A DNA stretch of 64,000 bases from Escherichia coli (GTDB lineage Bacteria; Pseudomonadota; Gammaproteobacteria; Enterobacterales; Enterobacteriaceae): the NCBI RefSeq assembly GCF_024223415.1, contig NZ_CP100500.1. One strand, written 5' to 3'. A program made the translations under genes and the position numbers. Numbering within the stretch: position 1 is the stretch's first letter; the number at the start of each line of letters is the position of its first letter. Shown piece after piece: positions 22,269 through 44,283 of this stretch. The notes under the pieces were generated by a model, which saw only the letters and a list, made by a program, of their open reading frames with translations, was not told the origin of the DNA and ran no database searches.

Positions 22269-23018
22269 TCAGTCAATTGTTTTGTTTATTCCATCTGTGA
22301 CGCCGATTATTTTCTCAAAATAATGAGATGGCGTGACACCATAATAATCTTTAAATGCACATATGAAATATGAAGTACTGTTATAGCCACATTTCTGGGC
22401 TACGACATTGATAGAATAAGAGTTTGAAGTTATGAGTTTTTTTGCATACCTCATCCTAGTATCTCTCAATATTTCAGTAAATGACGTTCCTTCATCCCTT
22501 AATCTTTTTTTTATTAAACTTTCACTCGTATAAATCAATTCCGCAATATCTTTTAAATGCCATTGCCGCTCAATATTAAAACTGATTATTCCAGTAATTT
22601 TACAGGTAAATGTATTTATATTTGTTAGTATAAATGAATTTACACTTTCGCGTTTTTTGAACATGGCAAGTAAGGATATACATAGTCTTTCTTTTAACCA
22701 AAGGGAGTATGAGTCTGCTATTTTAATCCCTTCAAACAGAGAAAAAACAAGCGATAATGGAGGTTCCTCTTCAGCAATATAGCCATTCTTATCAAGAGTA
22801 AATTTGCCAGGCAGCTCATTATTCACGTCGATAAAAAAGGATAAACATGTTTTCTTATCTATATCAACAATTCTTAGTTTAGAGGGGCATACTGGTAACT
22901 CCCTTCTAATTTTATCGCTTACAATAAACAATGAATTTTTTTTGAACGAGATAACTCTCCTGTTTATAATTAAATCAAATGATTGACAGATGAAAACTAC
23001 GGAGCAAACATAATCCAT
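22269..23018 (-). CDS. appY: AraC-family regulator AppY
   Basis: 249 aa; AT-rich; C-terminal AraC HTH; K-12 synteny next to ompT. Confidence 0.9.
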
Positions 23019-23577
23019 CTTGCACCTATCATAAAATTAAAACAAGTTGATAGCAGTCAAATAACAACCAATTAAATACACAATCATAATCAGGATGATG
23101 TGCATTTATATTTTTATACACAAAATTATAGTTTGCAAATTTTAATAAATTTCATTTAAGATTAAATTATTATATGTATATTGTTTTTTATTCTAACGTA
23201 TTTCAAAGTTACATTTTTCAACGCTTACTATACTTTTTATTAACATAAACTCACTACAACGCACCTGAAACCTCTTGCTATATATATGTCAACCGTTTGA
23301 ATTTAAAATAAAAAGAGTATCATTTTTACTTGCATTTCTTATCAAGTCACATTCAACAACAGTAAAAAAACATTATTAGAACCATTCAATTAACAAAAAA
23401 CCAACATCCAGCTTGCTTAATTTTTCTTTATTAAACGATATTGAAAATCAATTGATAAAATACATCTAAACAACCTTTTGGGGCGCAAAAGCATAACATC
23501 AAACAAACAAATAACACACCGAAAAAACTCACAATTAATAACCTATGATATACATACTGTTTATTATGGTTGAATAA

Positions 23578-23824
23578 GCCACTCGATATCTGGTGCTACG
23601 GAAGTGTCCACACGGTTTAGCAGCACCCGATACTTTTTTCAGGCTTCCAGCAACGATCTTTCTTCCTCCGTTGCGATTTCCAGATCTACAGCATCCTGCA
23701 GTGGCGCAATATACTCACTGAATTCCTGGATGTAGAACTGTGTGGTGACGGTCTTCCAGCCATTCGGCTCCTGCTGTATTGAAGCATACCAGGCTATTTC
23801 AATATCGCTATGCTGCGGCAGCAT
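23578..23824 (-). pseudogene. tail fibre assembly gene remnant (tfaX-like)
   Basis: 61-aa ORF 23639..23824; 23578-23720 is a ~143-bp near-duplicate of the 3' part of tfa (24628-24769) with a 1-nt indel creating a stop. Confidence 0.7.
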
Positions 23825-23880
23825 TTAACCCCTTGTAATTCATTGCCATAATTGATTTAATTCACAAATAAAACTATAAC

Positions 23881-24549
23881 ATGGTGAAATTAATGAAAAA
23901 AAACACAGATGATGGGGCTAAAATTTACACACCACTTACCCTAAAGCTTTATGACTGGTGGGTTTTGGGAGTATCAAATCGGCTTGCATGGGGATCTCCT
24001 ACAAAGGAACACCTTCTTCCACACTTTCTGGAACATTTAGGTAACAACCATCTGGATATTGGTGTTGGAACTGGGTTTTACCTTACTCACGTACCTGAGA
24101 GTAGTCTGATATCTTTAATGGATTTGAACGAAGCTAGCCTGAACGCGGCATCTACAAGGGCTGGGGAATCAAAAATTAAACATAAAATTAACCATGATGT
24201 TTTTGAACCTTGTCCCGCGGCGTTACATGGTCAATTTGATTCCATTTCCATGTTTTACCTTCTTCACTGCCTGCCTGGAAATATATCTACAAAAAGCTGT
24301 GTAATACGCAATGCGGCGCAGGCCTTAACTGACGATGGAACTCTATACGGAGCCACAATTCTTGGCGATGGAGTTGTGCACAATAGCTTCGGTCAAAAAC
24401 TGATGCGCATTTACAATCAGAAAGGCATCTTTTCAAACACAAAAGATTCCGAAGAAGGCTTAACACATATACTCTCAGAGCATTTCGAGAATGTTAAAAC
24501 CAAGGTTCAAGGTACTGTAGTAATGTTTTCCGCTTCAGGGAAAAAATAG
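23881..24549 (+). CDS. SAM-dependent methyltransferase (YbcY-like)
   Basis: 222 aa; motif I DIGVGTGFY; K-12 DLP12 has ybcY at the equivalent position. Confidence 0.7.
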   Translation: MVKLMKKNTDDGAKIYTPLTLKLYDWWVLGVSNRLAWGSPTKEHLLPHFLEHLGNNHLDIGVGTGFYLTHVPESSLISLMDLNEASLNAASTRAGESKIKHKINHDVFEPCPAALHGQFDSISMFYLLHCLPGNISTKSCVIRNAAQALTDDGTLYGATILGDGVVHNSFGQKLMRIYNQKGIFSNTKDSEEGLTHILSEHFENVKTKVQGTVVMFSASGKK

Positions 24550-24603
24550 CATCCAACCGCAGCACGTTCTTGCTTAAGACGTGCTGCGGCATAATCCCAA
24601 TGA

Positions 24604-25188
24604 TTACTCCCTGACAGGGTTCGTAGGCCACTCAATATCAGGTGCAGTTGATGTATCAACACGGTTCAGCAACACCCGATACTTTTTCCAGGCTTCCAGC
24701 AATGAGGTTTCTTCCTCCGTTGCGATTTCCAGATCTACAGCATCCTGAAGTGGCGCAATATGCTCACTGGCTACCTGCATCAGGCTGTTTTTTGTTTCTT
24801 CCGCCTCCCGGATCCGGAACAGTTTTTCTGCTTCTGCATCTTTCACCCAGGCTGTGCCGTTCCACTTCTGAAACTCCCCTTCCGGCGATAACCAGGTAAC
24901 ATTTTCCGGTAACGGACCGAGTTCAGAAATAAATAACTCGTCCCCTGACGCTACGTCATAAACCGTTTTACCCCGATGGTCTTCAACGAGATGCCACGAT
25001 GCCTCATCACTGTTGAAAACAGCCACAAAGCCAGCAGGAATATCTGGTGGTGCAATATCGGTACTGTTTGCTGGCAGACCTGTATGAGGCGGAATATATG
25101 CGTCACCTTCACCAATAAATTTATTAGTTCCGGCCAGCAGATTATAAATTTTTATGGTCCGTGCTTGTTCACTCATTCTGAATGCCAT
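24604..25188 (-). CDS. tail fibre assembly protein (Tfa)
   Basis: 194 aa; immediately downstream of side tail fibre gene; conserved Tfa C-terminus ([16 protein letters not shown]). Confidence 0.85.
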
Positions 25189-27944
25189 TATGCAAGCCTC
25201 ACAATATAGTTAAATGCGATGTTTTTGACGGTGTTTTCCGCGTTACCAGCAGCGTTAACGGTGATGGTGTGTCCATGTGAGCCAATCGCAACGGAGTGCG
25301 TATGAGCACCAATACCGACAGTATGTGCGTGTGCACCTGCAGATGCTGCGGTGCCGGACAGTGAGTGGCTATGATTACCATCTGTACTGGTATTAGCTAA
25401 CGCCCCCGTAGACATACCTACTGAGCCTTGTACACCCCAAGTATTTTGACCTGAGCTTGTATAACCATATTGATAAGTATCTTTAAAAACACTGGGGTTA
25501 AATCGACGGCCATCTCTATGGCTGTGATTACCAGCTGCATTCGTGCTGCCACTTAAACTATGGGTATGCGCACCAGTGTTATTCGTAGATTTAGTGCCGT
25601 AATCAAACGACGATGTGGTTTTCGTCCCCAAATCCGTACTGGATGCGCTGGCGCTGTGGGTGTGCGATTTAATGCCGTCCTGTTCCTGAGACAATACGGC
25701 ACGACCACTGGCGGGCTTGCCCTTAATCGTCCAGCCACGCATATCAGGGATCACGCCTGACGGATAAGCCGCTGCAAGTTTCGGGTATGCAGATTTGTCA
25801 AAAGCCTGCCCCTGCATCAGGGCATAGCCAGACGGAACGGTATCTGATGGCCACGGGATTGGTGCGCCAGGCGGATAAAACTGCTCTGATGGCGTATAGA
25901 GTGAATAAACTGTACCGTCCGTTAACCCTTCCGGCTTATTAGCAGAATATGCTGGTGACGTATGAATCGTCACGCTGGCATTACTGGTATAATCCCATTG
26001 AATATTTACACCAGTCGCATAATTTCCGATTGCAACGTAAATATCGTAAGTATCACCAGATGTATTAACCCAGGCAAAATTTGTAAACCCTGTCAATGTG
26101 CGCTGCCATAAAGCACCAGTAATCCCCTTCGGATTACCATTACCTGCACGTAAAACAAGTTCAGATATACCTGCCTGTTGAGGTGACCCCACGTTAAATC
26201 CAGCGCCACCAATCAACGTAATTGAAACAACAGAACTCGCCTGTGGCATGGTTACCGTTGCTAATTTGAACCAACCAGCACCACCGCTGAATGACATTGT
26301 TGTTGAGTTAAGCGTACCAATATCTTTCGGCGTCAGTGTTATATCCGCTGAAAGCGCCTTACCATTCACCTTACGGGCAGAAGGTACCCGACCATTCGCA
26401 TTGTCATTAGCTGCTTTCACTGCTTTCGGTGTCGCAGCAAGCGTTTCAGATGTGCTGTTGGTTGCACTACTGAGCTGGACAATTCCTTTTTGTGCTGTCG
26501 TAGCGTCCTGTGCGGTGTATTTCCCGTTAGCCAGGTCATACGCGGCCTTAACGGCTTTTGGCGTTGCCGCCTGTGACTCGGAAGTGCTGTTAGTCGCACT
26601 GCTGAGCTGAACTATCCCTTTCTGTCCTGTCGTTGCATCCTGTGCGGTGTATTTCCCGTTAGCCAGGTCATACGCGGCCTTAACGGCTTTTGGCGTTGCC
26701 GCCTGTGACTCGGAAGTGCTGTTGGTCGCACTGCTGAGCTGTACTATCCCCTTTTTCGTCGTGCTCGCATCCTCAAGCGCCACGGCGGATGCAATATCCT
26801 CTGCCCGTTTTGCTGCTGTCTCGGCGCGCGTTGCCGCGGATTCCGCCGTACTTTTGCTCTGTGCTGCCGCTGCCGCACTGCCAGCAGCCTCTGTCGCCTT
26901 CGTGGATGCCGTCGTGGCGCTGCCCCTCGCTGCTGACGCCTGTCTGGTCGCCTCATCTTTTGAAGCAGACGCAGATGATGCCGATGACGCCGCCGAACTG
27001 GCGGACGATGCGGCAGCCGTTTTTGAGGATTCTGCGCTGGTTTCCGACGCTTTCGCGTTCGTTTCGGATGTCTTCGCTGCGGAAGCAGACCTCGCTGCTG
27101 CGCTGGCCTGTTCAGTGGCTTCGCCAGCCTTCGTTGTGGCTGTTGAAGCGGATGATGCGGCGCTTTCTGCCGATTTTCCGGCGGCGGTGGCACTGACTGC
27201 TGCCTCCTCTGCCTTAATGGACGCCTCACGGGCCGATGATGCAGCTGCTGTCTCAGAGTCTGCCGCAGCTGAGGCGCTCTGTTCCGCTGCCGTTTCAGAA
27301 GACTTAGCATTCGTCTCGGACGTTTTCGCCGCAGCGGCACTGGTAGCTGCCGCGCTTTTTGAGGACTCTGCAGCAGCAGCACTTTTCGATGCTTCACTGG
27401 CCTTTGTTGATGCCGTTCCTGCGCTGGAAGATGCTGACTGAGCCGACGACGCGGCCTGTCCGGCTGACGTGCTGGCTGCGCGTGCTGAGCCTGCAGCATC
27501 AGTCGTATGGGTTGCCGCCTCACGGGCTGATGTGCTGGCATCGCTGGCTGACTTCTTCGCGGCTGCCGTGTTCTGTGCCACCGCGGACGCGTTACGCGCC
27601 ACCTCTTCCACCATCAGTTCAAAACGGCGCAGTGCCTCAGGACGGGCATCATCCTCCGTCATGGCACCGAGAAAATCATTCAGCGTACCGGGTCGGGAAT
27701 CTTCATACACGGTGATGGTCCCGGCATGTGACGGCGGGAACCCCTCCACCAACAGAATAACGCTGTACTGCCCGTACTCAACGTCCATGCTGTAACGCCC
27801 GGCTTCATCCGGATTTTCTGAGGCCAGCGTGTTCACCACCACCGTGGTGCTGTTACGTTTTGCTTTCAGCTGGATTGTGCAGTTCTGTACCGGTTTTCCT
27901 GTGCCGTCTTTCAGTACACCTGAAATCTTTACTGCCATATTCAC
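25188..27944 (-). CDS. side tail fibre protein (Stf-like)
   Basis: 918 aa; lambda Stf-like N-terminus, long Ala/Ser/Thr-rich region, three 44-aa tail-fibre repeats ([41 protein letters not shown]), His-rich C-terminal tip. Confidence 0.9.
26377..26772 (-). repeat. three tandem ~132-bp coding repeats inside the tail fibre gene
   Basis: Units beginning ~26377, 26509 and 26641 are near-identical at DNA level. Confidence 0.85.
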
Positions 27945-28002
27945 CCCACAAAAAAGCCCGCCTGAACCGGCGGGCTGTCATAACACTGTGTTACCTGGCT
28001 AA

Positions 28003-28602
28003 TCAGAATTTATAACCGACACCCACGATGAAACCGTCAGTGCGCCAGTCACCACTGCCGGAGCCTTCATAAGCAATATCAATGGCCACGGATTCGGTCG
28101 GGTTAAACTGCACGCCAGCCCCCCACGCCAGAGACGTGTTGCTGTGGCGACCGTCATCACTTCCGGTCAGCACATCGTGCTTTTTCCCCTTGTTGTCAGT
28201 TACGCGAAGATAATCCCCGGAGAAAGTCGACACACGGCTGTAAGCTACACCCGCCATCGCATACGCGCTGAACCATTCATTCACGCGCACAGACGGCCCC
28301 GCCATTACGCTGAACCAGCGGTTACGAACGGAATCTTCATGCCAGCGGGTATCGCTGTAACGGGTCAGCTGGCGATTCTTGTCTCCTGCATAGCTGAATG
28401 ACGTCACCAGCCCCAGTGTGTCCGTAAACTCATAACGGTATTTCACGTTAATCCCGTTCAGATCATCACTGCCGGGGACGTTCGTCGAGGCATGAAGATA
28501 CCCCGCGCTCAGCGTGGACTGATGTTCAGACGCCCATGCAGGCGCACCGGATACGGCCAGACAAATGGCTGCGGACAAAATTGCTGCACAAACTTTACGC
28601 AT
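28003..28602 (-). CDS. lom: Lom/Ail-family outer membrane protein
   Basis: 199 aa; signal peptide, beta-barrel ending in F; directly downstream of J as in lambda. Confidence 0.9.
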   Translation of the reverse strand: MRKVCAAILSAAICLAVSGAPAWASEHQSTLSAGYLHASTNVPGSDDLNGINVKYRYEFTDTLGLVTSFSYAGDKNRQLTRYSDTRWHEDSVRNRWFSVMAGPSVRVNEWFSAYAMAGVAYSRVSTFSGDYLRVTDNKGKKHDVLTGSDDGRHSNTSLAWGAGVQFNPTESVAIDIAYEGSGSGDWRTDGFIVGVGYKF

Positions 28603-34231: not shown

Positions 34232-34561
34232 CTATGCCACGACCTGTTCAAAATCTGCCGTTATGGTTACCCACAACGCCCCCACGCTTGCCGACCATTT
34301 ACGACAAACCACCCTGATCGGCTTCCAGTCATAAGGTGGCGTCCACTGAAATGCGCGGACGCCACCGTGCCGTTCCAGAAAGGCTTTTAAAGATGGGTGT
34401 TCACATTTACGAACACGTATCGTCACGCTGTAAATCGACAACTGGTTATTCAGTCCCGCCGCACGACGCTGTTCATAACCATCGCCCAGCTTCACTGTCA
34501 CCACTTTCGGCTCTGATACCACATTCATATCCGGGCGCACTTTCCAGTGAAACGTCTCCAT
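34232..34561 (-). CDS. M: minor tail protein M
   Basis: 109 aa; lambda M-like (GDGYEQRRAAGLN...FEQVV). Confidence 0.9.
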   Translation of the reverse strand: METFHWKVRPDMNVVSEPKVVTVKLGDGYEQRRAAGLNNQLSIYSVTIRVRKCEHPSLKAFLERHGGVRAFQWTPPYDWKPIRVVCRKWSASVGALWVTITADFEQVVA

Positions 34562-37500
34562 TACCGATATGCTCCACTTAACCGACCACCATCACGGGCC
34601 TGCTGTTGCATAAAGTCCGCTGCCGCTTTTTTCCCAAGGTCATAAACCACCTTCAGGGCAGCCGGACCTATCTGCCCGTTCGTGCCATCGTTATTGATCT
34701 CGATGTTGTACTGCGGGGCAAACATCGCCATACCTGAACCACCAATATCCGCCACAACCCCCAGCTTACCGTCAGCACCACGACGCAGTGGCAGAATGGC
34801 TTCAGGTCCAGCTTCCCCCATCACACCCGCGCCTTTTGCAAAAGCAAAAAACGTCGGACGGTTAACCACCGTGCCACTGTAACGACTCAAATCAGCAGAC
34901 TGATAAATCCCCCCATTGGCATTCAGGGAAAGGCTGCTGAGATCAAATCCCAGTACACTGCCAATCCCTTTTATCGATTTCATCATGGTTGCCTGCGCCA
35001 GGATTTTCGCCATATCTGACAGCACCGAAGAGGTGAAGGATTTGAAGTTGAGTTTGCCGGTAGTGACAAAAGTTGCCAGGCCATTTCCCATGTTGCTGAA
35101 GGCTGATGAGAACACCTGTTCTGCTGTTCCTGCCGTATTGTCTGCATCCACGGTAAAATCCTGAAATGCACGCAGGACTCCGTTTTTCCAGTTACCCTGC
35201 ACAACTTCAAGCTGTTGCCAGTAACGGCGATTCTCATTCAGTTGTCGGTTCAGGCTCTCCGTCAGCGCCTGCTCGGCCTTTCTGTAGTCATCCGTGTTAT
35301 ATGTCCCTTTCTGCTCACTATCCCGCCTCAACTGCTCCAGCTGTTGCTGGTATTTCTGGCGAAGACTCAGTTGTACCTGATATCGCTGCCGCTGCTGATC
35401 ACCCATACCCACCGTGGCGATATCCAGGTCATGTTGCTGACGCTGAGCGCGCTCTTCTTCAGCCAGTTGACTGGTCAGCTGAATTGTTTTTTTCTTCAGA
35501 TCGTTGAGTGCCGTTTGTTTCTGAAGCTCCTGCTGTTTTACATCCAGCAGCGTCAGTGCCTGAATCAGTTCATCTTTACGGGCCAGCACACTCTTTTCAT
35601 CTGCCGTCAGTTTTTTCCCGTCCAGGTCGCTGATGCGCTGCTGCAGAGCCAGAAGCTGTTTATGCGCTTCTGTCATCCTGTCAGTGGCAATGCCTGCTGA
35701 CTGTCTGGCAGCAGCAATCTGCCCTTCCACCTGTGCCTGTTGCTGGCTGTACTGCAGCAATAACCGGGTGGCCTCATCATTACGGGTTTCGCGTGTTTTT
35801 TTCTTACCGGATGCCAGGGCTTTCTCGTAACGTTCATTTTCACGTTGTATCGCCGCATCCCTGACAGCCTGATCGGCGTACTGCATGGCATTAATACGCG
35901 CAATTTCACGCTGATGTCGTGCTGCTTCCGTTTCATTCATCCGGTTCAGTGCAGCATTTTCAGCATTACGGCGTTTCTGTTGCTCCTGATAATTCCGCTC
36001 TGCCTGCTCTTTTGCATCCTGCAAATCCTTCTGGCGTTTTTTCTCCTGAAGCTCGTTAAGACGCTGCTGATCGTATTCAACCTGAGAAGATGATGCCGTC
36101 CAGGGGAGTCTTTTCGCCCGCGATACTTTCTCCTGCAAAGTGGCAATCTGCGCATCCAGCGAATCTTCACGACCAATATTCATGGCCGCATCCCAGAACT
36201 GCTTCCACCAGTCAGACAAGGTTTGCAGCGTACTACCCAGCGCATTGAGGTTATTATCAATATCCGCAGTACGCCGACCGGTTTCCTCTGCCAGTGCAGA
36301 CATGGCTATCCGTGCCGCATCACTGGAGCGCCCCTGCTCTCCAAGGACGCGTATCTGCTCAAGCTGAGTGGCAGTAAGAAAATGCAGCTCATTGTCCAGA
36401 GCCTTCGCGGCATTTACAGGATCATCCTTCAGCCGCTTAAACTGATTTATGGTATCGCTGATCGACTGGCCAACCGATCGCTCCATCTGTGCGGCAGCTC
36501 TCGCCACCATACCGATATCGTTTCCACGAAATGCACCACTCCCCACCACCTGAGCCAGCGCACCGGCTGCAGCATGTTGCGTGATACCATTCCCGGAAAT
36601 AGCACGACTGAGCGTCCACAGCTGCCCGGCAGTGACTCCGGCATAATGCCCCGTCAGCGACAGCTGGCGGTTAAATTCTTCCCCCTCCTTCTGACCGTCA
36701 TACCAGGCTTTACCCAGACCATAGACGGCCGCGGTAATACCGCCAATAACCCCGCCCAGCATCATGCCTTTCGGTGACATCAGTGTGTCTATCCATCCGG
36801 CACGGTTAGCCAGCGTTATCCCGGATCCCCTCAGCGCCCCTAAATTGCCGCGGGCCAGTTCACCTATCAGAACGCCTATCTCCTGGCGGGCCGCTGCACT
36901 TTTCAGACCCAGCGAATGCGTGGCTTTTCCTGCCCGCTCCATTTTGCGGATATACACTTCTGCAGCACTGCTTACCCCCAGCTGGGCAGCCCTGGCACGA
37001 AGCAACTCAGAAGAAGAAAGATTCTGGCGGGTTGCCTGCTCTTTAAGCTGACGGATAAACGCCACTTTCTGTCGGGTAGCCTCTGCCTCAGCCTGCGTAA
37101 GAACACGGGTTTTCGCCGTAACCTCAGAAATCAGCGCCAGATAATCCTGCTGACCAATCCCGCCACTGTTTCTGGCCTGTCGGATCTGCTGCTGAATACG
37201 CTGTAACTCCTGCAACCCCGCACTGGCCTGTTTCACACTGTCAATCTGACGATAAAACGCGGCAGCCGCTTTATCCTGAGCCTCCGCCAGAGCCATGGCC
37301 TGCGCCTGTTCCTCGCGCATTTTCTGGCTCAGCGCCTCCATGCGCTGGCGGGTTTTCTCCACCTCGCGGGCCATGCGTTCATGAGCCTGTGCGTTCTTCT
37401 CCACCGTCTGCGCATGGACGGATGCGGCTGTTGCAGCCGAAGAAGCCGCCTGCGTTGTCTGCCGGGCGGCCTGAGTCTGACGCTCCATAAAACGCTGCAT

Positions 37501-37656
37501 ACGGGCAGAAGACCGTTCTGCATCGCTGGCTGCACCATTCAGAAGGTTTTTGATACGGGGAATTTCATTTTTAAATTCTGCCGCATCAATCCCCAAATCA
37601 ATGACCAGGTTGGCTATCTGGTCCATAACGCACACCTCCGGAAATACCTTCCCCAA
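34561..37656 (-). CDS. tail tape measure protein (H-like)
   Basis: 1031 aa; long coiled-coil Q/A/E/R-rich protein between G/T and M. Confidence 0.9.
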   Translation of the reverse strand: MGKVFPEVCVMDQIANLVIDLGIDAAEFKNEIPRIKNLLNGAASDAERSSARMQRFMERQTQAARQTTQAASSAATAASVHAQTVEKNAQAHERMAREVEKTRQRMEALSQKMREEQAQAMALAEAQDKAAAAFYRQIDSVKQASAGLQELQRIQQQIRQARNSGGIGQQDYLALISEVTAKTRVLTQAEAEATRQKVAFIRQLKEQATRQNLSSSELLRARAAQLGVSSAAEVYIRKMERAGKATHSLGLKSAAARQEIGVLIGELARGNLGALRGSGITLANRAGWIDTLMSPKGMMLGGVIGGITAAVYGLGKAWYDGQKEGEEFNRQLSLTGHYAGVTAGQLWTLSRAISGNGITQHAAAGALAQVVGSGAFRGNDIGMVARAAAQMERSVGQSISDTINQFKRLKDDPVNAAKALDNELHFLTATQLEQIRVLGEQGRSSDAARIAMSALAEETGRRTADIDNNLNALGSTLQTLSDWWKQFWDAAMNIGREDSLDAQIATLQEKVSRAKRLPWTASSSQVEYDQQRLNELQEKKRQKDLQDAKEQAERNYQEQQKRRNAENAALNRMNETEAARHQREIARINAMQYADQAVRDAAIQRENERYEKALASGKKKTRETRNDEATRLLLQYSQQQAQVEGQIAAARQSAGIATDRMTEAHKQLLALQQRISDLDGKKLTADEKSVLARKDELIQALTLLDVKQQELQKQTALNDLKKKTIQLTSQLAEEERAQRQQHDLDIATVGMGDQQRQRYQVQLSLRQKYQQQLEQLRRDSEQKGTYNTDDYRKAEQALTESLNRQLNENRRYWQQLEVVQGNWKNGVLRAFQDFTVDADNTAGTAEQVFSSAFSNMGNGLATFVTTGKLNFKSFTSSVLSDMAKILAQATMMKSIKGIGSVLGFDLSSLSLNANGGIYQSADLSRYSGTVVNRPTFFAFAKGAGVMGEAGPEAILPLRRGADGKLGVVADIGGSGMAMFAPQYNIEINNDGTNGQIGPAALKVVYDLGKKAAADFMQQQARDGGRLSGAYR

Positions 37657-37927
37657 GATGCATCAGTTCTTCGTCCGTTCGCTCCGGTATCCCGTTCTCT
37701 TCCGGTAAAAGGCTGAAATCAGCCACCGCAGCATCACTGCTGCCGGACACCATTCTCACGATCAATGCCTTCAGCGAGGCAAACTGCGCATCCATCCACA
37801 CATCACTGAAGCTCTGCATCCGGAAATAATCGCCCCACTCACCAAGCTCAGTGGCCGACATTTCCGACAGCATCCGCCGCCAGTCTGCCCGCCTGAACTC
37901 CCGGGCAAGCCGCATGACAAACTGCAT
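37598..37927 (-). CDS. T segment of tail assembly chaperone GT (reached by -1 frameshift from G)
   Basis: ORF lies in the -1 frame relative to G and overlaps its 3' end; lambda G/GT arrangement. Confidence 0.6.
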   Translation of the reverse strand: MQFVMRLAREFRRADWRRMLSEMSATELGEWGDYFRMQSFSDVWMDAQFASLKALIVRMVSGSSDAAVADFSLLPEENGIPERTDEELMHLGEGISGGVRYGPDSQPGH

Positions 37928-37935
37928 TTCCCGCG

Positions 37936-38364
37936 TCAGGACTTTTCCGGCGTCAGCACCTCATGCTCCAAATCCCCGACATTCTCAATGGCTCCCATAC
38001 CGCTCAGCGACAGAACCATCTCCGCCCCCGCTCCCAGGGCATCATACGACCATGTTGTAATAACGGATGCGCAAAGCGTCTCAACATCCTGAGACTGTTC
38101 CGCATTCCACAGTGAGCGGGAAACCAGCCAGGCATTGATATCCATCCCCATCCGTAGAAAAGCAATCTGTCGTTCAGCCTCCGGCAGTTCTCCCTCTTCG
38201 GCATCAAACTTTGCCGTTCGCTGCTGAACAAACGCCAGATATTCAATTCTCTGCAGCCCGGACAGCTCACTGAGCACCACGGACTGCTTTTCATAATTAA
38301 ACGTGCCCTGTTTCAGAAACATCATGTTCTCCACCTGCAAAAAAGCCCCGGATAATCGGGGCAA
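37936..38364 (-). CDS. tail assembly chaperone G
   Basis: 142 aa; between major tail V and tape measure. Confidence 0.8.
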   Translation of the reverse strand: MPRLSGAFLQVENMMFLKQGTFNYEKQSVVLSELSGLQRIEYLAFVQQRTAKFDAEEGELPEAERQIAFLRMGMDINAWLVSRSLWNAEQSQDVETLCASVITTWSYDALGAGAEMVLSLSGMGAIENVGDLEHEVLTPEKS

Positions 38365-38382
38365 ATGATGAGTATCGTCCTG

Positions 38383-39201
38383 TTAACCTGCGGCGCTGAC
38401 GGCCACCGTAGCCACTGCCACAAAATCGCCGTCAGAAGTCATGCCCACAATGCTGACACTGCCCTGCTTCACGCCTTTCACCGTGACCACAAGCCCGTTC
38501 AGGGTCACCGTGGCAGTCTGTGGATCTGTCGAATGCACACTGATCGCTTTGTCACTGGCTCCGTCAGGTTTTACTGTAAAGGTCAGCGTGGTGGTTGCTC
38601 CCACTTTTACACTGGCAGATGCCGGTGCCACCGTCAGCCCGGTAACGCCCACGATTTCAGTGCCTTCTTCTGCCAGATACGGACGCCCCACACCGCTGAT
38701 TTTCACTGTGCGGGTCATCACGTCTTTTGAGGCAATGGTTTTACCCAGTGAACTCAGCCAGCCACGGAAAACATCAACAGTACCGTTGGGATATTTGATA
38801 CGAAACGCGCAGACTTCACCGGAGTCGAACAACTGAACCAGTTTTTTCTGCCCGCTGTCACCCGGACGCCAGGCCAGCGTCGCCGAAGTATCACCGACGG
38901 ATTTCTGCCCCTGGGTTGTCGTTTTCCAGTCTGCATCTTCATCATCGAGATAAGTGTCATCTTCTGCATCAGCGGTCATTTCGCCAGGCTGCAGATCCTT
39001 CACCATCGCAAGACGCAGCCAGTCAGTGTCCGATAAAGGGTTCGCAAACGCATCGCCCTTGCCGGTGTACATCCAGAACGTCGTTCCCGCACCTTTCGTT
39101 TTTGCCAGTGGATTTGGTGTGGTCATTGCCACCTCCTTAATTCGTGTACGTGATCTGGTACGTGATTTCCGCCATCGCCCAGGTGGCCATCTCATTATCA
39201 C
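38383..39201 (-). CDS. major tail protein V with C-terminal Ig-like domain
   Basis: 272 aa; C-terminal Big_2-like region (VTVKPDGASDKAISVHSTD...). Confidence 0.85.
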   Translation of the reverse strand: MIMRWPPGRWRKSRTRSRTRIKEVAMTTPNPLAKTKGAGTTFWMYTGKGDAFANPLSDTDWLRLAMVKDLQPGEMTADAEDDTYLDDEDADWKTTTQGQKSVGDTSATLAWRPGDSGQKKLVQLFDSGEVCAFRIKYPNGTVDVFRGWLSSLGKTIASKDVMTRTVKISGVGRPYLAEEGTEIVGVTGLTVAPASASVKVGATTTLTFTVKPDGASDKAISVHSTDPQTATVTLNGLVVTVKGVKQGSVSIVGMTSDGDFVAVATVAVSAAG

Positions 39202-40802: not shown

Positions 40803-42761
40803 TTACGCCGTACATTTCACCAGACCGCGGTGATCAACTGGCGCGACACCGGCGTCAATACGCACTTTCGTTGTCACGCCATCCACACTGAAGCCCTCCA
40901 TCTGATCAATATATGGCGTATCCACACCGTTGAGATAAGCCACTTCAATCGTATCGGAGCCTTTTGACGCAGCCAGGTAGAAGGTGGTCTGGCTGTTATC
41001 ATCAAGACGAGGCTCTGCAATAACGGTCGCAAAATCTTTCACCGGGTTAATAATACCGGCGTTAATGTCAGCCCCCTTGACACTTGAGGAGCGAATGACC
41101 TGGTTAGCAACAGACTCCATCGCCGTCGGTACCAGTACGAACGCAGGACGAATATTCAGATGACGCTCCCCCTCTTTCTGAACACGCATCAACTGGCGGG
41201 CTTTATCCAGCGATGCCACGTCCATTGCAGCGTCCTCCAGTACGTTTGCATGTTTCGCTTTATCGAACAGACTTACATTATCTGTGGAGATTTTCGGGTT
41301 AGACGTCAGAATGGCATAAACCAGATCGGCAATAGTGGATTTCGCCGCACGGCCCAGCTTCATCGGGACATCGGTCAGCATATTCAGATCATCATTGATA
41401 ATGGCCTGACGGGTGATACTGAACAGCTCGCCATAGGTCGCCAGTGCAATAGTGGCCTGTTTATCTCCGGTGGTGACGTATTTATATTCCGCCCCTTCAC
41501 GCACCTGACGCAGAGCACTGAAGCCCCCTATACCCACGCGATGGGCAATTTTAAAATCAGACAACTGACCTTTCCGCGTCCACTGTTCATAGGTTTCAGG
41601 GGCATCTTCCCAGCCCTGCAGAATGGCTTTGTTCGCAACATCCAGCAGAATATTACCGAAGTCAGACGTACTGTGTGTGAACGCCGCACCGACCATCTGC
41701 ATCGGGTTATAACCGGAAACCCCAATACCCCGTTCAGTCAGTGACATACGGGCATATTCACGCAGGGTCATCCCGTTGTAGACATTATCACGTTCGGTTT
41801 TTTCAAATCCGGCACGCGCCATCAGCGCCTGGCGGATCCCGTCCCCCACAAAATTACCGTTACCGGCATAAATATGAGCCGGGGTATTTTTATTGGATGG
41901 CGTGGACTCGCGCCCCATCTCGTTCAACAGCTTTTCGCGGGCCTGCTCCAGCGAACATTCAGGATCGGCAAGACACTGAGCCTGCAGCGTCTGATAACGC
42001 CCGCCAAACATGGCAAACAGATCATTAATACCGTTTACACGCGCTTTTTGCTCTGCCAGTACCTGCGCACGGATACTGTTTTCATCCACCACGGGTGCTG
42101 CTGCCTGCACTGGCGTCCGGGAGGCTGCAGGTTCATTATCCTGTACGCGTGGAGCACTGTTGCGTGGCGGAGTAATCATGTTTCGAATGGATTCCGGCAT
42201 CTTTTTAAATTCCTCTGTACGTTTTGACTGAATACATGCCATTGCCTTAACGGCTGGCGTCACCTGATCAGCAAATCCATGTGCCAGACATTCGGCACCG
42301 GACATCCAGGTCTCATCCGCCAGCATGGCAGCAATTTCATCGGTGGTTTTCCCGGTTTTCTGTGCATAAGCGGGTAACAGAACCGCCTCAACCTTATCGA
42401 GCAGGTCGGCATAGGTGCGCATGTCCTCCGCATCACCGCCCGTAAAGCCAAATGGTTTATGAATCATCATGAAGGTGTTTTCCGGCATAATGACCGGTTT
42501 TCCCACCATCGCAATGACCGACGCCATTGACGCCGCCACACCGTCGACATAAACGGTAATGGACGCACCATGTGTTTTCAGCGCATTAAAAATGGCGATG
42601 CCTTCAAAGACATCGCCACCCGGTGAATTGATATGGAGATTAATGTGGGTGATATCGCCCAGTGCATTCAGATCACTGATAAACTGCTTCGCTGTAACAC
42701 CCCAGAAACCAATCTCGTCATAAATATAAATATCCGCGTCACTCTGGTGACCAGCCTGCAT
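40803..42761 (-). CDS. prohead protease (ClpP-like) fused to major capsid protein
   Basis: ~653 aa from internal ATG (MQAGHQSDADIYIYDEIGFWG); track ORF extends to 43022 into portal; ClpP-like N-terminal half, capsid-like C-terminal half. Confidence 0.8.
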   Translation of the reverse strand: MQAGHQSDADIYIYDEIGFWGVTAKQFISDLNALGDITHINLHINSPGGDVFEGIAIFNALKTHGASITVYVDGVAASMASVIAMVGKPVIMPENTFMMIHKPFGFTGGDAEDMRTYADLLDKVEAVLLPAYAQKTGKTTDEIAAMLADETWMSGAECLAHGFADQVTPAVKAMACIQSKRTEEFKKMPESIRNMITPPRNSAPRVQDNEPAASRTPVQAAAPVVDENSIRAQVLAEQKARVNGINDLFAMFGGRYQTLQAQCLADPECSLEQAREKLLNEMGRESTPSNKNTPAHIYAGNGNFVGDGIRQALMARAGFEKTERDNVYNGMTLREYARMSLTERGIGVSGYNPMQMVGAAFTHSTSDFGNILLDVANKAILQGWEDAPETYEQWTRKGQLSDFKIAHRVGIGGFSALRQVREGAEYKYVTTGDKQATIALATYGELFSITRQAIINDDLNMLTDVPMKLGRAAKSTIADLVYAILTSNPKISTDNVSLFDKAKHANVLEDAAMDVASLDKARQLMRVQKEGERHLNIRPAFVLVPTAMESVANQVIRSSSVKGADINAGIINPVKDFATVIAEPRLDDNSQTTFYLAASKGSDTIEVAYLNGVDTPYIDQMEGFSVDGVTTKVRIDAGVAPVDHRGLVKCTA

Positions 42762-42774
42762 CCTGAACCAGGAA

Positions 42775-44283
42775 TTATTCTTCGGACTGGTCGTCGGTGT
42801 GCTGCGGCTCCTGTCGTTTCGTTGCGGCACTGCTGCCTCCTTTATCACTGGCCGGATCGGTATCAAATACCAGATCCAGCTTGCGGTTTTCATCAATTTC
42901 GGCCTTGCGCCGACGTTTGACATCATCCGGATTACGACCACCTGCACGTACCCAGTCTGATTCTGTCGCCGCTCCACCACGAATCTGGATTTTCCAGGCC
43001 TCAGCCTCCTTAACAGGGTCAATCCACGGCATCACCGGTCCGGAATACACCGCGGTATACAGTGAAGAACGGTCAAGATCGCGGGGTAGCCTGATAACAC
43101 CGGATGCCACAGCCTGTTTCAGCCAGGCACGGTACATCGGGCGGGTGACGGCACCAATAAACCAGTCCTGCAGGATCAGGTAGCCATCAGTGGATTCAAC
43201 CAGCTCCTGACGCTGGGCGCTGTAAGTGCCGTTATAGTTGCGCGCTGTACTGGAAAAACTCAGACGACTGCCAGCCGCCACTGCACGCAACTGACCATTA
43301 CGAAAAGTTTCAAGATTAGGATTGGGGCGATCCGACTTCACCATTCCGATTTCTTCGCCGGGTTTCAGATCGTCGTAAATAATGCCTGGCTGAATGGTAA
43401 GCTCGCGTTCCTTATCCTTGCTGCCATTACCATCCGGTTCATAGCTCTGCCCGTCGCCTTTGCGGATGTACATCCCCAGAGCAGCGGCGATCCTTGCTGC
43501 AGTCAGCTCATAATCTTCATAATCTTTCAGGGCACTGAGGCGGATCAGCACACCGGACAACAAAGACGTCCCGCGCATCTGGTGCAGACGGCGAACAAAT
43601 TTAAGATGCAGCATTCGCTCTGCATCCACTTCTTTGGTTTCCATCTGCCGTCCGGATACGGGACGGCTTTTATACACCAGATATTTTTCGGGACGCCCCC
43701 AGTCATCAACAAACACGCCCTGATTCAGCCTGTTGCTCTCATCACTGGTCATGGGAATAAAGTCCGGCTCGAGCGCCTCCAGCCAGAAATGAACACCGGC
43801 AGAAGGCGTCAGGCTGTTTATGCGCCCGGAAACCATCTGGGCAAACACCTCACCATCGCGCAGCCAGGTACGCAGCATCAGACGTTCCAGTATCGGACGG
43901 GTAAACTGCCCGGTGACTTCCGGGCTGACAGACCATTCACTCCATCGGGTGCGAATCTCCGCTGCCAGATCACGGGCAATGGCCCCATTGCGTAATACCG
44001 GATGTGGCTCGACAATAATCCCGTTTTTCCCCACCACCCGTTCTTCCCGCTTGTCAAATACACCAATAACCAGATCGTGGTTGTTATCAAGGTAACGGGC
44101 CTGCTCACGTAACGACACGGCCCCGTACTGGCTTAGCTGGTCGGCAGTTCGGTTCTCCCGTCGGGCTTTGTGTGTCCGCGTCGTTTTTACGGCTTCATAA
44201 GCCTGGATCACCGCACGGGAACGCAGCCTTGCCGCTTTCCATCCAGGTGAAAAAACGCCAATCACATCATCAAGAATTGCCAT
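42775..44283 (-). CDS. portal protein
   Basis: Start at internal ATG overlapping W stop (ATGA); track ORF 42775..44355; lambda B-like position. Confidence 0.85.
   Translation of the reverse strand: MAILDDVIGVFSPGWKAARLRSRAVIQAYEAVKTTRTHKARRENRTADQLSQYGAVSLREQARYLDNNHDLVIGVFDKREERVVGKNGIIVEPHPVLRNGAIARDLAAEIRTRWSEWSVSPEVTGQFTRPILERLMLRTWLRDGEVFAQMVSGRINSLTPSAGVHFWLEALEPDFIPMTSDESNRLNQGVFVDDWGRPEKYLVYKSRPVSGRQMETKEVDAERMLHLKFVRRLHQMRGTSLLSGVLIRLSALKDYEDYELTAARIAAALGMYIRKGDGQSYEPDGNGSKDKERELTIQPGIIYDDLKPGEEIGMVKSDRPNPNLETFRNGQLRAVAAGSRLSFSSTARNYNGTYSAQRQELVESTDGYLILQDWFIGAVTRPMYRAWLKQAVASGVIRLPRDLDRSSLYTAVYSGPVMPWIDPVKEAEAWKIQIRGGAATESDWVRAGGRNPDDVKRRRKAEIDENRKLDLVFDTDPASDKGGSSAATKRQEPQHTDDQSEE

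What the first reader, a model, noticed from the sequence alone, without database searches (positions are those of the whole stretch)
37939..37950. Programmed -1 frameshift site for the G/GT tail chaperone
The T ORF is in the -1 frame relative to G and overlaps its last codons. The mRNA reads ccGGAAAAGtcctga at the overlap, an A-rich slippery-like stretch at the position where lambda uses GGGAAAG.
Basis: partly seen in the sequence, partly recalled or inferred. Interest (0 to 1): 0.25.

Follow-up and report, generated by a model that had tools for sequence, protein, structure and literature searches.

The report
Lambda-type G/GT tail chaperone frameshift site
This is the ordinary, already-known programmed -1 ribosomal frameshift that lets a lambda-like prophage of E. 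coli make a small amount of a G-T fusion tail-assembly chaperone, here using the heptamer G_GAA_AAG that is already annotated as the slip site in phage N15.

Summary
On the minus strand, gene G (37936-38325, Pfam Phage_TAC_2) ends ...CCG GAA AAG TCC TGA. The T reading frame (Pfam Phage_tail_T) is the -1 frame. It is open for only 25 nt before the G stop, and the only shift-prone motif there is G_GAA_AAG (37948-37942).

- The heptamer sits at the position homologous to lambda's G_GGA_AAG.
- The conceptual G-T fusion aligns without a gap across the junction with lambda gpGT.
- CCG GAA AAG is codon-invariant in 38 distinct G genes, although the surrounding C-terminal tail is hypervariable.
- The ATG that annotators use as the T start has the weakest ribosome-binding site of the starts compared. 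It is absent in most relatives, while the 11 residues from the slip site onward are conserved.

N15 and phage LLS records already annotate GGAAAAG as the -1 slip site, and Gifsy-1/-2 records note the frameshift.

The site is not a canonical X_XXY_YYZ heptamer, because tRNA-Glu must re-pair GAA to GGA. No conserved downstream structure was found, and an upstream SD-like GAGGTG is lineage-specific.

Verdict: real, functional by strong comparative inference, and already known. Low interest. The only gap is in annotation: databases list G and T separately, and the fusion protein is not on record.

The parts
37936..38325 (-). Gene G, tail assembly chaperone. It is 129 aa from ATG 38325; PGAP starts it at the second ATG, 38322, giving 128 aa. 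Stop TGA at 37938-37936.
   Evidence: Pfam PF06894 Phage_TAC_2, E 2.2e-39. ORF table and sequence. PGAP annotation of a 99.8% identical E. coli locus.
37942..37948 (-). Slip site G_GAA_AAG. The 0-frame codons are GAA AAG, preceded by the G of CCG. After a -1 shift the next codon read is GTC (37942-37940).
   Evidence: Sequence. It is the only in-phase motif with an A-site re-pairing triplet in the overlap. It is invariant in 38 unique G genes. The identical heptamer is annotated as the slip site in N15 and LLS.
37961..37963 (-). TGA in the -1 frame. It sets the 5' limit of the region in which a productive -1 shift can occur.
   Evidence: the -1 frame is open only from 37960.
37598..37942 (-). 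T-domain coding segment read in the -1 frame after the shift (114 aa, VLTREMQFVMRLAREF...GGVRYGPDSQPGH). Stop at 37600-37598. Predicted G-T fusion: 128 + 114 = 242 aa.
   Evidence: Pfam PF06223 Phage_tail_T, E 5.1e-15. Translation. Collinear alignment with lambda gpGT and N15 GT.
37925..37927 (-). ATG used by PGAP and GenBank records as the start of a stand-alone 109-aa T. Probably just an internal Met codon of GT.
   Evidence: Weakest anti-SD pairing of the eight starts compared: -4.3 kcal/mol with 0-nt spacing, against -13.4 for H and -14.6 for V. The ATG is absent in Gifsy-1/-2, Fels-1, lambda, VT1-Sakai and many N15-like loci.
37957..37962 (-). SD-like GAGGTG, 8 nt 5' of the heptamer. A possible but unproven frameshift stimulator.
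   Evidence: -9.3 kcal/mol against the 16S 3' end, within the top 2% of 9-mers in G. AAGGAGGTG occupies the same place in one sister clade, but the element is weak in other lineages and absent in lambda.
38345..38362 (-). Terminator-like hairpin (followed by TTTTTTG) between major tail gene V and G.
   Evidence: The same position is annotated as a terminator or stem-loop in Ayreon, mEp460, N15 and HK225.
37624..37626 (-). ATG of tape measure gene H. It overlaps the last 9 codons of T, and its SD (GGAGGTG) lies inside T's conserved GGVRYG codons.
   Evidence: H carries Pfam TMP_2 and Tape_meas_lam_C.

Best explanation
This is the programmed -1 ribosomal frameshift site of a lambda-type tail assembly chaperone pair in an mEp460/cdtI/Ayreon-like prophage of E. 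coli.

Most ribosomes translate G to its stop and make the 128/129-aa chaperone gpG. A small fraction slip back one base when GAA (P site, tRNA-Glu) and AAG (A site, tRNA-Lys) occupy the ribosome. tRNA-Lys re-pairs perfectly with AAA. tRNA-Glu re-pairs with GGA through G:C, a central G-U, and A:U. Translation then continues in the T frame and gives a ~242-aa G-T fusion with the junction ...LTPEK|VLTREMQFVMRLAREF....

By analogy with lambda, the G part binds the tape measure protein H and the T part recruits the major tail protein V. A low GT:G ratio is what tail assembly needs.

Shown here: anatomy, homology, phase, conservation, and the absence of a credible independent start. Inferred: that slippage actually happens, its rate, and tandem versus A-site-only slippage.
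For: (1) Context. The order Z-U-V-G-T-H-...-J on the minus strand is supported by Pfam hits for each gene.

(2) Frame. T is in the -1 frame. The overlap is only 25 nt and holds a single shift-prone motif.

(3) Homologous position. Lambda has G_GGA_AAG, VT1-Sakai has A_AAA_AAG, Vibrio phage K243 has C_CCA_AAA, and N15, phi80, HK225, mEp213 and LLS have G_GAA_AAG. All lie immediately before the conserved [VA][LF]..E[LM].F peptide.

(4) Fusion alignment. The conceptual GT aligns end to end with lambda GT (E 4e-42) and N15 GT (E 3e-37), with no gap at the junction.

(5) Nucleotide-level constraint.
- In 38 unique G genes only 8 of 29 invariant-residue columns keep one codon. Three of those are the consecutive CCG GAA AAG, which sit in an otherwise hypervariable tail.
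- Across 250 loci, all 100 unique G genes carrying G_GAA_AAG keep G as heptamer base 1, although the codon supplying it encodes P, L, A or V. One further unique gene carries the variant A_GAA_AAG.

(6) No independent start. ATG 37927 has the poorest SD, and it is missing in most relatives, while the residues upstream of it are conserved.

(7) Prior annotation. N15 carries 'slippery sequence for -1 translational frameshift' = GGAAAAG. LLS carries 'minus-one programmed translational frameshift site GGAAAAG' with a joined CDS. Gifsy-1/-2 T genes are annotated as made by frameshifting, and both have the identical CCGGAAAAGTCCTGA.

(8) Literature. A_AAG is the classic E. coli -1 shift tetramer, NNA_AAG hexamers shift, and X_XX = G_GA intermediates are known elsewhere (PMC5009743).
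Against: - No protein evidence was obtained here.
- G_GAA_AAG is not a canonical X_XXY_YYZ. In a reconstituted E. coli system AUG GAA AAG was the 'less slippery' control and gave mainly 0-frame product, because of the second-position mismatch of tRNA-Glu on GGA (PMC6924986).
- No conserved downstream stimulatory structure: z-scores -1.6 and -0.8, and an alifold covariation term of +0.39.
- No Rfam match.
- The upstream SD-like element is not conserved across lineages.
- Public annotation of this exact module lists G and T as separate genes.
Confidence: 0.9

Rival explanations
1. T is made as a free 109-aa protein from its own ATG (37927), for example by termination-reinitiation 8 nt after the G stop. 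This is how PGAP and most GenBank records annotate it. No frameshift would be needed.
For: ATG 37927 lies close to the G stop. It is annotated this way in E. coli RefSeq genomes and in mEp460 and cdtI. The 109-aa T is recorded on at least 1000 contigs, while the exact fusion is not on record.
Against: - It has the weakest SD of the eight starts compared, with 0-nt spacing.
- The ATG is replaced by CTG or CTT in Gifsy-1, Fels-1 and Gifsy-2.
- No ATG, GTG or TTG exists between the slip site and LAREF in 67 A_AAA_AAG loci, in Gifsy-2-type loci and in many N15-like loci. The peptide upstream of it (VLTRE/VLNRE/ALASE) is nevertheless conserved.
- The heptamer is conserved at synonymous positions. 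This model does not explain that.
Confidence: 0.05
2. The frameshift is real but works by A-site-only slippage of tRNA-Lys on A_AAG (the hexanucleotide NNA_AAG type, as in CGA_AAG of IS1222 and B. subtilis cdd). The P-site tRNA-Glu would make no contribution by re-pairing.
For: - NNA_AAG motifs shift at low level in E. coli (PMC5009743).
- tRNA-Glu on GGA has a second-position mismatch and is treated as unable to slip in PMC6924986.
- Natural singleton variants A_GAA_AAG and G_GCA_AAG exist.
Against: - Heptamer base 1 is G in all 100 unique G_GAA_AAG genes, although it is the wobble base of four different codons (CCG, CTG, GCG, GTG). This is expected if first-position G:C pairing of tRNA-Glu in the -1 frame matters. 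The one A_GAA_AAG gene is the only related variant lacking it.
- In relatives with other heptamers, base 1 always equals base 2 (A_AA, G_GG, C_CC).
Confidence: 0.25
3. The fusion arises by transcriptional slippage of RNA polymerase on the A run, not by ribosomal slippage.
For: An A-rich tract is present. Transcriptional realignment is known for long A runs, with efficiency rising over 7 to 11 As (PMC3711429).
Against: The run is only four As. Relatives at the homologous site use G_GGA_AAG, with three As. Established knowledge is that slippage-prone homopolymers are much longer.
Confidence: 0.01
4. The arrangement is a decaying prophage remnant and the T frame is not expressed at all.
For: Some IMG/VR relatives have T broken by indels (L029; L033 group). 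The module sits in a chromosome and is present in 1846 of 5426 complete E. coli genomes.
Against: In the window the G, T, H and neighbouring tail and head genes are all intact. The region is 99-99.6% identical to isolated phages phi458, Ayreon and vB_EcoS-569R4.
Confidence: 0.03

Closest known systems
Bacteriophage lambda G / G-T (-1 frameshift at G_GGA_AAG; Levin, Hendrix & Casjens 1993; Xu, Hendrix & Duda 2004, 2013, 2014, as cited in PMC5009743)
   Same: Same Pfam families for G and T. Same place between V and H. Same -1 direction. The slip site is at the homologous codon pair, and the fusion aligns collinearly (34% identity, E 4e-42). No downstream structure is evident.
   Different: The heptamer differs by one base (G_GAA_AAG against G_GGA_AAG), so the P-site tRNA is tRNA-Glu with an imperfect -1 pairing. 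The G stop is 1 codon after the heptamer rather than 5. T is shorter (114 aa against 144 aa after the junction).
Phage N15 genes 14/15 and the phi80, LLS, HK225 and mEp213 group
   Same: Identical heptamer GGAAAAG in the same phase. It is explicitly annotated as the -1 slip site in N15 and LLS, and LLS carries a joined CDS.
   Different: About 35% (GT) to 43% (T) protein identity. The preceding codon is GCG, GTG or CTG rather than CCG. The G stop is 5 codons downstream.
Salmonella prophages Gifsy-1, Gifsy-2 and Fels-1, G/T
   Same: 55-57% G identity. Identical CCGGAAAAGTCCTGA in Gifsy-1/-2 (CCGGAAAAGCCCTGA in Fels-1). The Gifsy records state that T is part of G by translational frameshifting.
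   Different: They lack the ATG that annotators use as the T start in the window's clade.
E. coli dnaX (A_AAA_AAG with an upstream SD-like element and a downstream hairpin)
   Same: A-site AAG-to-AAA slippage of the single E. coli tRNA-Lys. The window has GAGGTG 8-10 nt upstream, similar to the dnaX SD spacing.
   Different: No conserved downstream hairpin. The SD-like element is not conserved in relatives. The P-site pairing is imperfect. The product is an extension, not a truncation.
Hexanucleotide NNA_AAG shift sites (CGA_AAG in IS1222 and B. subtilis cdd)
   Same: Low-level -1 shifting driven mainly by tRNA-Lys on A_AAG (PMC5009743).
   Different: Here base 1 is conserved as G, so the P-site tRNA keeps first- and third-position pairing after the shift. 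This makes it an intermediate between a hexamer and a canonical heptamer.

Membership tests
Lambda-type tail assembly chaperone pair with conserved -1 frameshift (G/GT) | Two ORFs lying between the major tail protein gene and the tape measure gene | tested here: met
   V (PF16461) at 38383-39126, then G, then T, then H (PF06791, PF09718) at 34561-37626, all on the minus strand.
Lambda-type tail assembly chaperone pair with conserved -1 frameshift (G/GT) | Upstream ORF homologous to gpG and downstream frame homologous to gpT | tested here: met
   PF06894 E 2.2e-39 and PF06223 E 5.1e-15. BLASTP of the fusion against lambda GT gives E 4e-42.
Lambda-type tail assembly chaperone pair with conserved -1 frameshift (G/GT) | Downstream frame is -1 relative to G and overlaps its 3' end | tested here: met
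   25-nt overlap. The -1 frame is open from 37960 and the G stop is at 37938-37936.
Lambda-type tail assembly chaperone pair with conserved -1 frameshift (G/GT) | Shift-prone sequence in the overlap, in the correct phase and conserved in relatives | tested here: met
   G_GAA_AAG is in phase, codon-invariant in 38 unique G genes, and found in 168 of 250 collected loci.
Lambda-type tail assembly chaperone pair with conserved -1 frameshift (G/GT) | T domain has no independent translation start | tested here: met
   ATG 37927 has the weakest SD (-4.3 kcal/mol, 0 spacing) and is not conserved. The junction peptide upstream of it is conserved. Independent initiation is not excluded experimentally.
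Lambda-type tail assembly chaperone pair with conserved -1 frameshift (G/GT) | A G-T fusion protein is made at a low ratio to G and is needed for tail assembly | not testable with these tools
   Needs a western blot, mass spectrometry or a reporter assay. The lambda ratio of ~30:1 is taken from PMC5009743.
Canonical X_XXY_YYZ tandem-slippage heptamer | XXX are three identical bases, so the P-site tRNA re-pairs at its first two positions | tested here: not met
   XXX = GGA. tRNA-Glu would face GGA, a second-position G-U (PMC6924986).
Canonical X_XXY_YYZ tandem-slippage heptamer | YYY identical, with a Z favourable in the host (A_AAG in E. coli) | tested here: met
   YYYZ = AAAG. A_AAG shiftiness in E. 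coli is described in PMC5009743.
dnaX-type stimulated -1 frameshift | Conserved downstream hairpin or pseudoknot 5-9 nt after the heptamer | tested here: not met
   Fold z-scores -1.58 and -0.77. Consensus fold -9.85 kcal/mol with covariation +0.39, and only 2 of 20 pairs show compensatory change.
dnaX-type stimulated -1 frameshift | Upstream SD-like element 6-17 nt 5' of the heptamer | tested here: inconclusive
   GAGGTG is present in the window (-9.3 kcal/mol, top 2% in G) and AAGGAGGTG in one sister clade. Elsewhere pairing is only -4 to -6 kcal/mol, and lambda has none. A best-of-window score at this level is expected by chance about one time in four.

The most novel reading that the evidence does not exclude
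G_GAA_AAG is used in reconstituted E. coli translation as the poorly slippery control because tRNA-Glu mismatches GGA at the middle position. In this (query-biased) sample it is nevertheless the commonest conserved chaperone shift site of enterobacterial lambda-like phages: 100 of 142 unique G genes with a classifiable shift motif. Its first base is held as G across P, L, A and V codons. This could mean one of two things. Either a central G-U P-site pairing contributes measurably to -1 frameshifting in vivo, or these phages carry an unrecognised stimulator (for example nascent peptide, upstream SD-like pairing or the nearby stop) that compensates for a weak heptamer. Either case would give a natural calibration point for thermodynamic models of frameshifting.
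Probability: 0.15. Interest if true: 0.35.

Novelty: already known. Interest (0 to 1): 0.13.

Why it matters
Biologically it matters little beyond confirming textbook phage biology: the G:GT ratio set by a low-rate frameshift controls tail assembly.

In practice it exposes a systematic annotation gap. This tail module is in 1846 of 5426 complete E. coli genomes. It is annotated everywhere as two separate genes, with T starting at an internal Met, and the fusion protein that is probably the only form of T made is not on record.

The comparative data also show that the near-canonical heptamer G_GAA_AAG is a widespread natural slip site. That is mildly interesting for people who model frameshift efficiency.

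Tried and rejected
- Downstream stimulatory RNA structure. Single-sequence folds of 92 nt and 201 nt were not more stable than shuffles. A 10-lineage consensus fold showed no covariation support. Rejected.
- Known RNA families. An Rfam E-value scan of 37300-38500 gave only a chance-level isrG hit on the other strand.
- Upstream SD-like stimulator. It is strong in the window and in one clade but not conserved, and it is not significant after allowing for the search window. Left as inconclusive.
- Synonymous-site argument. I checked that it is not simply dual coding. The -1-frame codons GGA AAA are upstream of the shift and are not translated in the fusion, so the invariance of the three wobble bases is a nucleotide-level constraint.
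- Literature. Xu, Hendrix & Duda 2004 is not held. Text searches for GGAAAAG with phage, tail or frameshift found no paper describing this site in phages. They did find the in-vitro work that uses G GAA AAG as a control. The GeneTack-tested Phage_TAC cassettes are HK97-type sites with A_AAA_AAG and G_GGA_AAG (6-7%), not this family.
- Exact look-up of the conceptual 241- and 242-aa fusions. Not in the 15-billion-protein collection.
- Transcriptional slippage. Rejected because the A run is only 4 nt.

Full report
**What is in the sequence**

The genes in this part of the window are on the minus strand. Read 5'->3' on that strand, 37980->37921 is gtcggggatttggagcatgaggtgctgacgCCGGAAAAGTCCTGAcgcgggaaATGcagt.

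- An ORF ends at TGA 37938-37936. It starts at ATG 38325, with a second ATG at 38322 that PGAP uses. Its last codons are ACG CCG GAA AAG TCC TGA.
- The reading frame that encodes the downstream protein has codons starting at 37927 + 3k. That is one base 5' of the upstream gene's codons, so it is the -1 frame.
- The -1 frame is closed by a TGA at 37963-37961 and is open from 37960 to the stop at 37600-37598.
- A productive -1 shift can therefore only happen within a 25-nt stretch. The only motif there with an A-site triplet that can re-pair is G_GAA_AAG at 37948-37942.
- One correction: the ATG-delimited 'T ORF' (ATG 37927) starts 8 nt after the G stop. It is the open -1 frame, not that ORF, that overlaps G.

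**What the genes are**

- The upstream protein matches Pfam Phage_TAC_2, 'bacteriophage lambda tail assembly chaperone G' (E 2.2e-39).
- The -1 frame matches Phage_tail_T (E 5.1e-15).
- The gene 5' of G is a lambda-type tail tube protein with an Ig-like domain.
- The gene 3' of T is a lambda-type tape measure protein.
- Further out are Z, U, J, Lom, a side tail fibre and its assembly protein, a lambda-family portal, terminase gpA and a ClpP-capsid ORF.
- The 841-nt G-T region is 99.6% identical to phage phi458, 99.0% to Ayreon and vB_EcoS-569R4, and 97-98% to mEp460 and cdtI.
- It is present in 1846 of 5426 complete E. coli genomes.

This is a common lambdoid prophage tail module.

**Is the heptamer more than chance?**

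GGAAAAG by itself is not rare: there are 19 copies in the window against about 9 expected. What is informative is its place, its phase and its conservation.

- With about six in-phase positions available in the overlap, a chance GGAAAAG there has a probability of about 1e-3 (my arithmetic).
- I collected 80 IMG/VR loci encoding relatives of this G (53-99% identity), plus Gifsy-1, Gifsy-2 and Fels-1. Every one has CCGGAAAAG in the same phase, one codon before the G stop.
- In a codon alignment of 38 distinct G genes, only 8 of the 29 columns with an invariant, degenerate amino acid also keep a single codon. Three of these are the consecutive CCG GAA AAG. They sit at the end of a C-terminal tail in which almost every other column carries 3-8 different residues.
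- The -1-frame codons GGA AAA lie upstream of the shift and would not be translated in the fusion. The invariance of these wobble bases is therefore a nucleotide-level constraint, as expected for a slip site.

**Homology of the site**

I extended the sample with two more IMG/VR scans (N15-like and lambda/VT1-Sakai-like G proteins) and nine annotated phage records.

- In every case a shift-prone heptamer lies in phase immediately before a conserved junction peptide [VA][LF]..E[LM].F[VA][LM]. That peptide leads into the LARE[FM] motif of T.
- Lambda and PhiR12_2 have G_GGA_AAG, VT1-Sakai has A_AAA_AAG, and Vibrio phage K243 has C_CCA_AAA.
- N15, phi80, LLS, HK225, mEp213 and the window's clade have G_GAA_AAG.
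- The counts are biased by my choice of queries. G_GAA_AAG is in 168 loci (100 unique G genes), A_AAA_AAG in 67 (28), and G_GGA_AAG in 13 (12). There are single cases of G_GCA_AAG and A_GAA_AAG.
- The conceptual fusion (G through Lys, then the -1 frame) aligns collinearly, with no gap at the junction, with lambda gpGT (...EPVSAGK|VFDGELSFALKLAREM; E 4e-42) and with N15 GT (E 3e-37).

**Does T have its own start?**

PGAP and most GenBank records annotate a 109-aa T from ATG 37927.

- That ATG has the weakest anti-SD pairing of the eight starts I compared: -4.3 kcal/mol with no spacer. For comparison, G is -7.2, H is -13.4 and V is -14.6.
- It is confined to the window's immediate sub-clade. It is CTG in Gifsy-1 and Fels-1 and CTT in Gifsy-2.
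- In the A_AAA_AAG loci, the Gifsy-2 type and many N15-like loci there is no ATG, GTG or TTG at all between the slip site and LAREF. Lambda has only the GTG that is the first post-shift codon. The residues upstream of the ATG position are nevertheless conserved.

This argues that translation enters the T frame at the heptamer and not at an initiation codon.

**Mechanism**

- The A-site half, A_AAG, is the classic E. coli -1 shift tetramer: the single tRNA-Lys re-pairs AAG to AAA (review PMC5009743).
- The P-site half is imperfect. tRNA-Glu leaves GAA and must sit on GGA, which keeps the first and third positions but puts G opposite U in the middle.
- The same review lists such 'intermediate' X_XX forms, including G_GA, between hexanucleotide NNA_AAG sites and canonical heptamers.
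- In a reconstituted E. coli system, AUG GAA AAG was deliberately used as the 'less slippery' sequence and gave mainly 0-frame product (PMC6924986). I therefore expect the rate here to be low, which is what a G:GT ratio like lambda's ~30:1 requires.
- The comparative data favour some P-site contribution. Heptamer base 1 is G in all 100 unique G_GAA_AAG genes, although it is the wobble base of four different codons (CCG, CTG, GCG, GTG, encoding P, L, A, V). In relatives with other heptamers, base 1 always equals base 2.
- I put tandem slippage with near-cognate P-site pairing ahead of A-site-only slippage. This is inference.

**Stimulators**

- I found no conserved downstream structure. Fold z-scores are -1.58 and -0.77. 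The consensus fold of ten lineages is weak, with a positive covariation term. Rfam has no match.
- Upstream, the window has GAGGTG (37962-37957) 8 nt before the heptamer. It pairs at -9.3 kcal/mol with the 16S 3' end, within the top 2% of 9-mers in G. One sister clade has AAGGAGGTG at the same place.
- Gifsy, Fels and lambda have only weak or no pairing there. After allowing for the size of the search window the result is not significant, so I leave it as a possible lineage-specific enhancer.
- The G stop lies one codon after the heptamer in this clade and five codons after it in N15 and lambda. Those bases are also constrained by the T frame, so I draw nothing from this.

**What is already known**

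- The N15 record marks 10027-10033, which I read as GGAAAAG, as 'slippery sequence for -1 translational frameshift'.
- Phage LLS marks 'minus-one programmed translational frameshift site GGAAAAG' and carries a joined CDS.
- The Gifsy-1 and Gifsy-2 records describe T as part of G 'by translational frameshifting', and both have the identical CCGGAAAAGTCCTGA.
- HK97-type chaperone cassettes with A_AAA_AAG and G_GGA_AAG gave 6-7% frameshifting in E. coli (PMC3711429).

The phenomenon, the family and this very heptamer are therefore known. What is missing is annotation. For this module G and T are listed separately everywhere I looked, and the exact 241- or 242-aa fusion is absent from a 15-billion-protein collection, while the 109-aa T is on at least 1000 contigs.

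**Verdict**

This is an ordinary member of the lambda G/GT system using the N15-type slip site. Confidence that this is the functional -1 shift site is about 0.9. No product was observed, so a reporter assay or a junction peptide would settle it. Novelty: already known. Interest: low.

Noticed in passing
window 38345-38362 (-): A G+C-rich hairpin, GCCCCGATTATCCGGGGC followed by TTTTTTG, lies between the major tail gene V and G. The same spot is annotated as a terminator or stem-loop in Ayreon, mEp460, N15 and HK225. It may be a partial terminator that lowers expression of G, T and H relative to V.
   Followed up: partly
window 37957-37962 (-): SD-like GAGGTG lies 8 nt 5' of the slip site, and AAGGAGGTG occupies the same place in IMG/VR clade L052-L063. 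The spacing resembles the dnaX stimulator, but the element is weak or absent in Gifsy-1/-2, Fels-1 and lambda.
   Followed up: partly
window 37598-37640 (-): The tape measure gene H starts at ATG 37626, inside the last codons of T (29-nt overlap). Its strong SD (GGAGGTG) is encoded by T's conserved C-terminal GGVRYG motif, so that peptide motif and the H translation signals share the same bases.
   Followed up: no
window 40803-43022 (-): A single 739-aa ORF combines a ClpP-type protease domain (PF00574) with a phage capsid domain (PF25209). This is a head maturation protease and major capsid fusion. Its most upstream start overlaps the portal gene ORF.
   Followed up: no
L029 and L033-L035 (IMG/VR relatives): The T frame is cut to 37 or 62 aa by small indels, while G and the heptamer are intact. 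These are probably decaying prophages or assembly errors.
   Followed up: no
Loci L007-L256 (census): Two natural singleton variants occur at the homologous slip site, A_GAA_AAG and G_GCA_AAG. If they are not sequencing errors, they are natural tests of how much P-site pairing the shift needs.
   Followed up: no
window 36924-36930 (-): A second GGAAAAG lies inside tape measure gene H. It is in the phase GGA AAA G (Gly-Lys), which is not the shift-prone phase, and it is conserved as ...ERAGKA... in relatives.
   Followed up: partly
window 22269-28602: The tail end of the prophage carries a Lom/Ail outer-membrane protein gene (28003-28602), a side tail fibre gene (25188-27944) and a fibre assembly gene (24604-25188). 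An AraC-family regulator gene follows at 22269-23018, near the likely prophage boundary. No tRNA gene occurs anywhere in the window.
   Followed up: no
Public annotation of this module: The conceptual G-T fusion is not in the protein collection. The 109-aa 'T' starting at an internal Met is recorded on at least 1000 contigs, and G and T are separate CDSs in RefSeq E. coli genomes. This looks like a systematic annotation gap.
   Followed up: yes
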